A stretch of 64,000 nucleotides of DNA from Escherichia coli (GCF_041886205.1 NZ_CP169029.1), one strand, 5' to 3'. Positions 59,262 to 59,476 are shown, counted from the stretch's first letter. The notes: generated by a model from the letters alone, not told the origin. Numbers and translations are program-made.

Positions 59262-59476
59262 TCTGATGCCGCACGTAGGCCTGATAAGACGCGGACAGCG
59301 TCGCATCAGGCATCTTGTGCAAATGTCGGATGCGGCGTGAACGCCTTATCCGACCTACAAAAACAAATTTATCAATGAGTTAGAAATCCCTGTAGGCCTG
59401 ATAAGACGCGCCAGCGTCGCATCAGGCATCTTGTGCGAATGTCGGATGCGGCGAAAACGCCTTATCTGACCTACAG
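59262..59476. repeat. REP/BIME cluster (about four REP units in alternating orientation) between yacG and mutT, overlapping mutT 3-prime end
   Basis: Repeated GTAGGCCTGATAAGACGCG...CGTCGCATCAGGC and TGTCGGATGCGGCG(T/A)(G/A)AACGCCTTATC units. Confidence 0.88.

What the first reader, a model, noticed from the sequence alone, without database searches (positions are those of the whole stretch)
59262..59476. Four-unit REP/BIME array abutting and overlapping the mutT stop codon
Alternating-orientation REP units fill the yacG-mutT convergent spacer and the last unit extends over the final codons and stop of mutT (59471-59473). REP arrays are mRNA-stabilising elements and targets of the REP-associated tyrosine transposase; overlap with a coding 3-prime end implies the mutT C-terminus is partly REP-encoded.
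Basis: seen in the sequence. Interest (0 to 1): 0.25.

Follow-up and report, generated by a model that had tools for sequence, protein, structure and literature searches.

The report
REP array touching the mutT stop codon
The gap between the convergent E. coli genes yacG and mutT is filled by an ordinary, well-known kind of repeated palindromic DNA (a REP/BIME array); its last unit supplies the mutT stop codon but no amino acid in this strain, although about 31% of complete E. coli genomes have lost that stop and read three extra codons out of the repeat.

Summary
Window 59275-59474 holds four full REP units in alternating orientation (z2, y, z2, y), arranged as two 116/117-bp modules. A half-unit remnant lies at 59260-59274. 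The REP foot motif occurs 5 times in the window against 0.04 expected.

The last y unit ends at 59474. Its conserved GTAG therefore contains the mutT amber stop (59471-59473) and the wobble base of Leu129.

No MutT residue is dictated by the REP in this strain. However, about 1,663 of 5,426 complete E. coli genomes (O157:H7 and B2-type strains) have GTAG changed to GTAT. They make a 132-aa MutT whose tail (Y-V/A-G/E) and TAA stop are read from the REP stem.

The REP-at-stop junction is shared by all five Escherichia species sampled and is absent from Salmonella. Module number varies between strains (2, 4, 6 or more units).

The array is an atypical BIME: z2 and y units with S linkers, joined by an L-like linker carrying a conserved IHF core. 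Both modules match Rfam naRNA4.

The likely role is inferred, not shown: a shared 3'-UTR hairpin barrier for both transcripts, and attenuated termination of MutT translation under the published "REP within 15 nt of a stop" rule.

This is a known kind of element at a known locus, so interest is low.

The parts
59058..59255 (+). yacG CDS (DNA gyrase inhibitor YacG); stop TGA at 59253-59255
   Evidence: ORF list. RefSeq annotation of the 100%-identical strain 504239 and of K-12.
59260..59274 (.). Degenerate half-REP remnant (TGTCTGATGCCGCAC). It begins 4 nt after the yacG stop. Positions 59260-59269 are complementary to the 3' arm end of U1.
   Evidence: Inverted repeat I8 (10 nt, 90%). In B2-type strains the same place reads ATCTGATGCGACGCTGG, a clean first half of a z2 unit. 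The remnant is conserved at the yacG end of the array in all Escherichia species.
59275..59312 (+). REP unit U1, z2 type, GTAG at 59275-59278
   Evidence: (I3). RNA hairpin dG -21.8 / -21.3 kcal/mol.
59313..59323 (.). Short head-to-head linker (S), TCTTGTGCAAA
   Evidence: Sequence. An 11-nt linker of the same type occurs in all Escherichia arrays.
59324..59358 (-). REP unit U2, y type (GTCGGA..TCCGAC variant); its GTAG is on the - strand (59358-59355)
   Evidence: (I7). Hairpin dG -18.8 / -19.2 kcal/mol.
59359..59391 (.). 33-nt tail-to-tail L-like linker. The IHF consensus core TATCAATGAGTTA lies at 59370-59382, preceded by an A/T tract.
   Evidence: WATCAANNNNTTR match. ATCAA....TT is invariant in an alignment with the linkers of four other Escherichia species, strain APEC17 and the canonical BIME-1 L linker at 32142-32176 of this window. 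The linker is locus-specific: one place per genome in 1,870 genomes.
59392..59428 (+). REP unit U3, z2 type, GTAG at 59392-59395 (this GTAG is TTAG in K-12)
   Evidence: (I5).
59429..59439 (.). Second S linker, TCTTGTGCGAA
   Evidence: Sequence; direct repeat D1.
59440..59474 (-). REP unit U4, y type with a G-to-A stem mismatch. Its GTAG (59474-59471 on the - strand) contains the mutT stop codon and the third base of Leu129.
   Evidence: On the mutT mRNA the hairpin (dG -13.1 kcal/mol) starts at the first nucleotide after UAG.
59471..59860 (-). mutT CDS (8-oxo-dGTP diphosphatase, 129 aa, ends ..AKLKRL*). The stop TAG is at 59473-59471. A second in-frame stop, TAA, lies two codons further on, inside the REP (TAG GTC AGA TAA).
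   Evidence: ORF list. RefSeq annotation. 129-aa match to PDB 1MUT. Sequence.
59278..59355 (-). Module 1 (y - S - z2, read on the mutT-sense strand) matching Rfam RF02564 naRNA4 over its full length
   Evidence: 78.4 bits against a gathering score of 59.5, model positions 1-77 of 77.
59395..59471 (-). Module 2 (y - S - z2) matching Rfam RF02564 naRNA4 over its full length
   Evidence: 78.9 bits against a gathering score of 59.5.

Best explanation
SHOWN. The 215-nt yacG-mutT spacer is an ordinary composite BIME. It has two 116/117-bp modules, each a z2 REP, an 11-nt S linker and a y REP. The modules are joined tail-to-tail by a 33-nt L-like linker with an IHF core. A half-REP remnant lies next to yacG.

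The y unit next to mutT is placed so that the REP's conserved GTAG supplies the mutT amber stop and the wobble base of Leu129. No amino acid is REP-specified in this strain. A second in-frame stop (the TAA of GATAAGG) follows two codons later.

This junction is shared by all five Escherichia species representatives examined and is absent from Salmonella. Most other Enterobacteriaceae sampled have a yacG-mutT spacer of only -4 to about 60 nt. The REP therefore most likely entered in an Escherichia ancestor, and the array then expanded and contracted by whole modules (2, 4, 6 or up to about 11 units).

INFERRED, from published work on other REPs:
- The four hairpins form a shared 3' UTR for the two convergent transcripts.
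- They block 3'-to-5' exonucleases and partly stop read-through in both directions. No intrinsic terminator is present in the spacer.
- The U4 stem begins at the first nucleotide after UAG, well within the published 15-nt limit. A terminating ribosome must therefore melt it, which should lower MutT output through stalling and trans-translation.
- On DNA, the y units are likely gyrase sites and the linker a likely IHF site.
For: Anatomy and significance:
- Unit mapping: (5 motif hits against 0.04 expected).
- Hairpin energies: -13 to -22 kcal/mol per unit.
- 261-nt folds: z = -5.1 on the mutT-sense strand and -6.2 on the yacG-sense strand.

Classification:
- Definitions of z2, y, S and L are taken from PMC3333891.
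- IHF core. It is invariant across the aligned linkers.
- Both modules exceed the Rfam naRNA4 gathering score. naRNA4 is a 77-nt Y-linker-Z2 unit (PMC4550694).

Overlap with mutT.

Evolution:
- The REP starts at position -1 relative to the stop in E. albertii, E. sp. E1V33, E. sp. MOD1-EC7003, E. whittamii and a divergent E. coli.
- Spacers are 183-562 nt with 3-11 motif hits (units) in Escherichia, against -4 to about 60 nt in most other genera.
- Salmonella has a 131-aa MutT and no REP.

Copy-number polymorphism:
- Locus spans of 687, 803 and 919 bp.
- The linker is present in 1,870 of 5,426 genomes, with up to 3 copies.

Function (literature):
- REPs within 15 nt of a stop stall ribosomes (Liang, Rudd and Deutscher 2015, as summarised in PMC12306157).
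- REP325 acts as both terminator and stabiliser, and convergent gene pairs with a REP are more highly expressed (bioRxiv 10.64898/2026.03.23.713779).
- Gyrase cleaves BIME-2 and prefers y units (PMC6379681).
- No intrinsic terminator was found in the spacer.
Against: - No expression, 3'-end, ribosome-profiling, tmRNA-tagging, IHF or gyrase data for this locus could be retrieved. Every functional step is by analogy.
- U4 is the weakest hairpin of the four (-13.1 kcal/mol, with a G-to-A stem mismatch), so stalling may be slight.
- The 2026 preprint reports that REPs do not uniformly change mRNA half-lives and that effects depend on context.
- Arrays of 2, 4 and 6 units, and both stop alleles, all coexist at high frequency in E. 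coli. This argues against strong selection on any one configuration.
- Whether the TAG was brought in by the REP or already existed and was used as the insertion point cannot be decided from these data.
Confidence: 0.85

Rival explanations
1. One reading: the MutT C-terminus of this strain is partly encoded by REP sequence.
For: The REP consensus reaches 4 nt into the CDS, covering the stop and one base. In other strains the tail really is REP-read.
Against: In this window the only coding base inside the REP is the third position of CTG, and Leu is encoded by any CTN. MutT is the standard 129 aa and matches PDB 1MUT over its full 129-aa length. The CAG at 59474-59476, which resembles the CTG in front of U3, is not part of the REP consensus. 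The corresponding bases before U3 differ in K-12 and ETEC1730.
Confidence: 0.05
2. Selfish, near-neutral passenger. The array is a parasitic repeat tolerated in a permissive convergent spacer. The stop overlap is an accident of insertion with no consequence for mutT or yacG.
For: - Module number and stop allele vary freely between strains.
- GTAG motifs decay: TTAG in K-12 U3, GTAT in O157, TTAA in two Escherichia species.
- An IS621 sits in U1 in some strains without loss of the flanking genes.
- The MutT tail beyond about residue 126 is variable across Enterobacteriaceae.
Against: - The y-REP has been kept at exactly the same position relative to the stop across all Escherichia species sampled.
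- The IHF core is the conserved part of otherwise diverging linkers.
- Published data show measurable effects of REPs at other loci.
Confidence: 0.3
3. Target-site origin. The TAG stop (preceded by G) is ancestral to mutT, and the REP/BIME was inserted next to this pre-existing GTAG. The stop was therefore not donated by the repeat.
For: - GTAG lies outside the palindrome and is the recognition and cleavage context of TnpAREP, which cuts within CTAC at C|T (PMC3333891).
- Several Citrobacter genomes end mutT with TAG and have a REP 6 nt further on.
Against: - No REP-free Escherichia allele with ..KLKRL-TAG was found.
- Salmonella and most other genera end MutT differently, with tails of 129-135 aa and mostly TAA or TGA stops.
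- The mechanism of REP insertion in vivo is unknown.
Confidence: 0.3
4. The modules are genes for naRNA4-like nucleoid-associated RNAs that, together with HU, bridge cruciforms and condense the chromosome.
For: Both modules match Rfam RF02564 over the full model, above the gathering score. The architecture equals the REP325 unit, a 77-nt Y-linker-Z2.
Against: - The Rfam model in effect describes any y-S-z2 BIME module, so the match shows membership of the repeat family, not function.
- The 2026 preprint from a group that includes an author of the original naRNA4 work (S. Adhya) finds no measurable chromosome compaction by REP325 or naRNA4 and no HU-dependent REP-REP contacts.
Confidence: 0.07
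5. The array is a classical bidirectional intrinsic (Rho-independent) terminator.
For: GC-rich hairpins lie between convergent genes. 78 REPs fall within previously predicted bidirectional terminators.
Against: No hairpin in the spacer is followed by a U-run on either strand, and the terminator scan finds none in 59256-59470.
Confidence: 0.05

Closest known systems
BIME-2 / atypical BIME of E. coli (Bachellier, Gilson and Hofnung nomenclature, as summarised in PMC3333891)
   Same: Alternating y and z2 REPs. Short S linker between heads. Tandem modules whose number differs between strains. Copies within the locus are near-identical. Intergenic position at gene 3' ends.
   Different: The tail-to-tail linker is L-like with an IHF core, a feature of BIME-1. 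The array is therefore best filed as an 'atypical' (chimeric) BIME. Its outer y unit reaches 4 nt into a CDS.
BIME-1 / RIP / RIB elements (y - L with IHF site - z1), e.g. the one at window 32107-32207
   Same: A y unit and a z unit joined tail-to-tail by a linker of about 33-35 nt carrying WATCAANNNNTTR. The core aligns with the BIME-1 L linker of the same window.
   Different: The partner is z2, not z1. The element is multi-copy with S linkers. The linker sequence outside the IHF core is locus-specific.
REP325 / naRNA1-6 (yjdM-yjdN), Rfam RF02564
   Same: Same 77-nt y-linker-z2 module, with full-length matches above the gathering score. The published role of REP325 as a 3'-UTR stabiliser and partial Rho-dependent terminator is the best functional model.
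   Different: Two modules instead of six. Lies between convergent rather than tandem genes. The spacer between modules is an IHF-type linker. The array abuts a stop codon.
REPs within 15 nt of a stop codon that down-regulate translation (Liang, Rudd and Deutscher 2015)
   Same: The REP hairpin lies immediately 3' of the stop (spacing 0 nt, below the 15-nt limit), so the geometric criterion is met.
   Different: mutT was not found named in any text I could read. Here the stop codon is itself part of the REP. The effect is untested.
Repeat elements fused in frame to ORFs (Rickettsia RPEs and various MITEs; reviewed in PMC3184786)
   Same: In the stop-loss alleles a mobile palindromic repeat provides C-terminal residues and the stop codon of a housekeeping protein.
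   Different: Only 3 residues are added, at the extreme C-terminus. This happens by point mutation of a stop inside an already resident REP, not by insertion into the gene.

Membership tests
REP (palindromic unit) of Enterobacteriaceae | 30-40 nt imperfect palindrome with an internal mismatch/bubble | tested here: met
   Four units of 35-38 nt. Arms of 14 nt are 86% complementary. Predicted hairpins of -13 to -22 kcal/mol carry the usual internal bubble.
REP (palindromic unit) of Enterobacteriaceae | Conserved GTAG tetranucleotide 5' of the palindrome foot | tested here: met
   All four units have GTAG (59275, 59392 on +; 59358, 59474 on -).
REP (palindromic unit) of Enterobacteriaceae | High copy number, dispersed in the genome | tested here: met
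   A query spanning this locus finds a median of 17 places per E. coli genome. 21 units were found in the 164 kb examined.
REP (palindromic unit) of Enterobacteriaceae | Extragenic location | tested here: inconclusive
   Three units are fully intergenic. U4 overlaps mutT by 4 nt (stop plus one base). In stop-loss strains the overlap is 13 nt.
BIME-2 | Alternating y and z2 units separated head-to-head by the short S linker, in tandem copies of variable number | tested here: met
   z2-S-y occurs twice, with 11-nt S linkers. Alleles with 2, 4 and 6 units exist.
BIME-2 | Tail-to-tail flanking motif of type s, l or r (not L) | tested here: inconclusive
   The 33-nt linker aligns with a BIME-1 L linker through the IHF core. 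Consensus sequences of s, l and r were not available to me.
BIME-1 / RIP | One y and one z1 unit, single copy, separated by L with an IHF site | tested here: not met
   The partner units are z2 (long loop, GACGCG..CGCGTC), and the element is tandemly repeated. The IHF consensus itself is present.
Atypical (chimeric) BIME | Multi-copy combination of motifs from BIME-1 and BIME-2 (y, z2, S plus L-like linker) | tested here: met
   Definition from PMC3333891. Composition shown.
Rfam RF02564 naRNA4 | Score at or above the curated gathering threshold over the full model | tested here: met
   78.9 and 78.4 bits against 59.5, model positions 1-77 of 77, - strand. This shows family resemblance only. 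HU binding was not tested.
Translation-attenuating REPs (Liang et al. 2015) | REP stem begins 15 nt or less downstream of the stop codon | tested here: met
   The stem starts at the nucleotide after UAG.
Translation-attenuating REPs (Liang et al. 2015) | Reduced protein output, mRNA cleavage and tmRNA tagging dependent on the REP | not testable with these tools
   Requires experiments. The primary paper was not held in the library.
IHF site | WATCAANNNNTTR core with an upstream A/T tract | tested here: met
   TATCAATGAGTTA at 59370-59382, preceded by AAAAACAAATT. The core is invariant in 7 aligned linkers. Binding was not tested.
REPIN / RAYT (TnpAREP) substrate | Inverted REP pair with intact GTAG and stem mismatch, plus a cognate tnpAREP gene in the genome | not tested
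   The sequence requirements (GTAG, bubble) are met. I did not look for a tnpAREP gene in the window, and the rest of the genome is not available to me.
Intrinsic terminator | GC-rich hairpin followed by a U-run | tested here: not met
   No site in 59256-59470 on either strand.

The most novel reading that the evidence does not exclude
The REP-at-stop junction could be a tunable attenuator of the antimutator MutT. The hairpin abutting, or in stop-loss strains enclosing, the stop codon would set how much MutT is made. Natural variation would then give E. coli lineages heritably different, and perhaps stress-responsive, A:T-to-C:G mutation rates. The variation in question is 2, 4 or 6 units, hairpin strength from -13 to -20 kcal/mol, and a TAG stop versus read-through to a TAA inside the stem. 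A second, related possibility is that REPs preferentially settle on pre-existing GTAG and so target amber-terminated genes.
Probability: 0.07. Interest if true: 0.55.

Novelty: already known. Interest (0 to 1): 0.2.

Why it matters
As a feature, this is textbook E. coli repeat biology at a locus 99% identical to K-12, so it does not change what is known.

Two points are worth keeping.

1. It is a clean, datable example of a REP supplying a stop codon. After one point mutation, the REP also supplies three C-terminal residues of a conserved housekeeping enzyme, in roughly a third of sequenced E. coli. This qualifies current statements that REPs are strictly extragenic and never alter coding sequences.

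2. The affected gene is the strongest single antimutator of E. coli, and the geometry meets the published criterion for REP-mediated ribosome stalling. The natural alleles therefore offer a ready-made series for testing whether REPs tune protein output and mutation rate.

Tried and rejected
- RefSeq annotation of K-12 shows no repeat feature in the spacer. The same copy also lacks any REP feature in the yaaX-yaaA spacer (K-12 5531-5682), where one search finds two REP units. Absence of annotation is therefore uninformative.
- The terminator/promoter scan found nothing in the spacer.
- The primary paper on REP and translation (Liang 2015) and its 2016 follow-up are not held. I used the summary in PMC12306157 instead.
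- Searches for mutT or yacG in REP papers and their supplements found nothing. This covers RepRanger, Ton-Hoang (no supplement held), the Prieto IHF ChIP-seq study, the gyrase Topo-seq study and the 2026 preprint.
- One literature search was wasted on prefix matches such as 'bimetallic'.
- I tried to measure how often a REP GTAG holds a stop codon. Only 164 kb could be examined (the window plus K-12 1-100 kb). U4 was the only case among 21 units. The sample is too small for a rate and considers only genes entering from the GTAG side. An earlier fuzzy-regex version of this scan missed units and was discarded.
- Reading the Rfam naRNA4 hits as evidence of an HU-binding RNA gene was rejected. The model equals a generic y-S-z2 module, and the function is now disputed.
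- The small ORFs inside the array (39-88 aa) were treated as by-products of the repeats.

Full report
**Context**

The window is E. coli. The 803-bp yacG-to-mutT stretch is 100% identical to strains 504239 and TOK-001 and 99% identical to K-12 derivatives. It is found in 5,425 of 5,426 complete genomes.

Gene order on the + strand is zapD (58305-59048), yacG (59058-59255), then on the - strand mutT (59860-59471) and secA (62625-59920). yacG and mutT converge on a 215-nt spacer (59256-59470).

**Checking the observation**

Reading the sequence, the repeat finder and motif scans give four full REP units:
- U1, z2 type: 59275-59312, GTAG on the + strand.
- U2, y type: 59324-59358, GTAG on the - strand.
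- U3, z2 type: 59392-59428.
- U4, y type: 59440-59474.

Each z2/y pair is joined head-to-head by an 11-nt linker (TCTTGTGCAAA / TCTTGTGCGAA). The two pairs are a 116/117-bp tandem duplication (94-100% identity). They are joined tail-to-tail by a 33-nt linker (59359-59391).

The REP foot motif occurs 5 times in the window against 0.04 expected from shuffles. Each unit folds into the usual bubbled hairpin, -13 to -22 kcal/mol. The 261-nt region folds far better than shuffles on both strands (z = -5.1 and -6.2).

A degenerate half-unit (59260-59274) lies 4 nt after the yacG stop. In B2-type strains it is a clean first half of a z2 unit, and it is conserved at the yacG end of the array in other Escherichia species.

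**The overlap with mutT**

On the mutT-sense strand the end of the gene reads AAA CGT CTG TAG GTC AGA TAA GGC G. GTAGGTCAGATAAGGCG is the foot of U4. It follows that:
- the amber stop is the TAG of the REP's conserved GTAG;
- the G of GTAG is the wobble base of Leu129;
- the REP's GATAAGG provides a second in-frame stop two codons later.

The overlap is 4 nt. But no amino acid is fixed by REP sequence here, and MutT is the standard 129-aa protein.

The locus exists in several sizes:
- 687 bp, two units.
- 803 bp, four units.
- 919 bp, six units (ETEC1730).

These differ by whole 116-bp modules. In an evenly spaced sample of 40 records, 22 were two-unit, 14 four-unit and 1 six-unit. Two were interrupted by an insertion (one fetched and shown to be IS621), and one was an unrelated short plasmid hit.

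The 33-nt linker, which marks arrays of four or more units, is present in 1,870 genomes. It occurs at one place per genome, at most three.

The junction with mutT comes in two functional states:
- *TAG state.* Found in 1,788 genomes (window/K-12 type) plus 1,375 genomes (two-unit type).
- *Stop-loss state.* CTG TAG has become GTG TAT, so GTAG is now GTAT. Found in 726 genomes (O157:H7 type) plus 937 genomes (B2 types), at least 1,663 in all, or 31%.

In every stop-loss hit the 16 bases CATACACACGCTTAAG are necessarily exact, because any 28-nt seed word within the 40-nt query spans them. These strains are annotated with a 399-nt mutT. Their MutT ends ..KLKRVYVG*..RVYAG* or ..RVYVE*. The final residues and the TAA stop are read from the REP stem GYC GRA TAA GG.

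**Other species**

One scan of species-representative genomes gave 80 loci.
- All five Escherichia representatives have a y REP starting at position -1 relative to the stop. These are E. albertii, E. sp. E1V33, E. sp. MOD1-EC7003, E. whittamii and a divergent E. coli. Two of them have TAA in place of TAG.
- Their spacers are 183-562 nt, with 3 to 11 REP-motif hits (units).
- Salmonella has a 131-aa MutT (..KLRQCAH*), a 314-340-nt spacer and no REP.
- Most other genera have spacers of -4 to about 60 nt.
- The MutT core ends near PPANEPVIxKL. The tail beyond it varies from 129 to 135 aa.
- Independent cases of a REP giving the stop occur in Citrobacter sp. HRGM_0066 (ctg TAG gccgg), C. amalonaticus S646 (cag gcc gga TAA ggc, tail QAG*) and Klebsiella spallanzanii (aag gtc gga TAA, tail KVG*).

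The REP therefore most likely arrived at the mutT stop in an Escherichia ancestor, and the array has since grown and shrunk. Whether the TAG was brought by the REP or was the pre-existing insertion point cannot be decided.

**What kind of element it is**

The definitions in PMC3333891 are:
- BIME-1: y + z1 with a long L linker carrying an IHF site, single copy.
- BIME-2: y + z2 with a short S linker, in tandem copies of variable number.
- Atypical BIME: chimeras of the two.

This array has y, z2 and S, like BIME-2. Its tail-to-tail linker, however, carries TATCAATGAGTTA, an exact WATCAANNNNTTR match preceded by an A/T tract. The core ATCAA....TT is the invariant part when the linker is aligned with those of four Escherichia species, of strain APEC17 and with the L linker of the canonical BIME-1 at 32107-32207 in the same window. 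It is best filed as an atypical BIME.

Both y-S-z2 modules match Rfam naRNA4 over the whole model, above threshold. That family is simply the 77-nt module of REP325. Its proposed nucleoid role is now contested.

**How it probably works (inferred, not shown)**

- No intrinsic terminator lies in the spacer. The hairpins are therefore the only obvious structures at the 3' ends of both convergent transcripts.
- Work on REP325 shows a REP array acting both as a partly Rho-dependent terminator and as a stabiliser of the upstream mRNA. Convergent pairs with a REP are more highly expressed.
- REPs within 15 nt of a stop stall ribosomes and trigger trans-translation (Liang et al. 2015). Here the U4 stem starts at the first nucleotide after UAG. 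In the stop-loss alleles the TAA lies inside the stem. MutT synthesis is therefore predicted to be attenuated.
- U4 is the weakest hairpin, -13.1 kcal/mol against -18.8 for U2, which may limit the effect.
- For yacG the first stem begins 23 nt after the stop, outside the 15-nt limit.
- On DNA, gyrase prefers y units of BIME-2 and the linker is a plausible IHF site.

No data specific to this locus were found for any of these steps.

**Verdict**

This is an already known kind of element at a well-studied locus. The added value is the exact anatomy (GTAG = stop), the dating to the genus Escherichia, and the census showing a REP-read MutT tail in about 31% of complete E. coli genomes. Interest is low (0.2).

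Noticed in passing
L005 / L093 (E. coli STEC17-183, NZ_CP075652.1 1791265-1792642), equivalent to window 59278/59279: A 1,278-bp IS621 (IS110 family) is inserted in REP unit U1, between GTAG and GCCTG, with AG present on both sides. The target reads ATCAGGCCTAC on the other strand. yacG and mutT are intact on either side. This fits the published REP-specific targeting of IS621. A second record in the 40-row sample (H39) gives the same truncated match, so it may carry the same insertion, but it was not fetched.
   Followed up: partly
window 59875-59944 (- strand): Rfam STnc40 (a Salmonella sRNA family) matches at 81.7 bits, against a gathering score of 45. The match spans the secA stop and the secA-mutT spacer, which holds a strong hairpin with T-runs on both sides (AAAAAAGGCGCAGAATCCTGCGCCTTTT). 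The simple terminator scan did not list this hairpin.
   Followed up: no
window 32107-32207: A canonical BIME-1 / RIP element: y unit (32107-32141), a 35-nt L linker with the IHF core AATCAATGGATTG (32154-32166), and a z1 unit (32177-32207). It lies between convergent ORFs ending at 32069 and 32271. I used it as an internal comparator.
   Followed up: partly
L088 (E. coli APEC20/16, NZ_CP127297.1): mutT is annotated as a frameshifted pseudogene. [quoted passage not shown] This could be a natural mutator allele or a homopolymer sequencing error.
   Followed up: partly
L001 (K-12 MG1655) against window 59390-59395 and 59431: K-12 differs from the window inside the array. The GTAG of U3 is TTAG in K-12 (CCCTTTAGG against CCCTGTAGG), and the second S linker has G for T. 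The window strain therefore keeps all four GTAG motifs, while K-12 keeps three.
   Followed up: no
L086 (E. coli APEC17): A four-unit array combined with the stop-loss mutT allele. Its tail-to-tail linker (AAGACCTTACATATCAACATGTTAAAATT) resembles the E. albertii linker rather than the K-12 one, but still carries an IHF core. At least two old linker lineages therefore circulate in E. coli.
   Followed up: partly
L016 (QXHL01000193.1, 'Alicyclobacillaceae bacterium I2511', 424-nt contig, coverage 0.83): This contig encodes a MutT 80% identical to the query, with a Salmonella-type tail (..KLRQFAP*). It is almost certainly enterobacterial contamination in a Firmicutes assembly.
   Followed up: no
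L011, L012 (Salmonella enterica subsp. arizonae and diarizonae): The mutT-yacG spacer is 314-340 nt and contains no REP. It starts with a short hairpin (GGGGATC..GATCCCC) right after the stop. I did not examine what fills the rest.
   Followed up: no
(E. coli genomes): The mutT/REP junction word also hits three records typed as plasmids (1 + 2 places). These could be large chromosomal segments on plasmids or mis-typed records.
   Followed up: no
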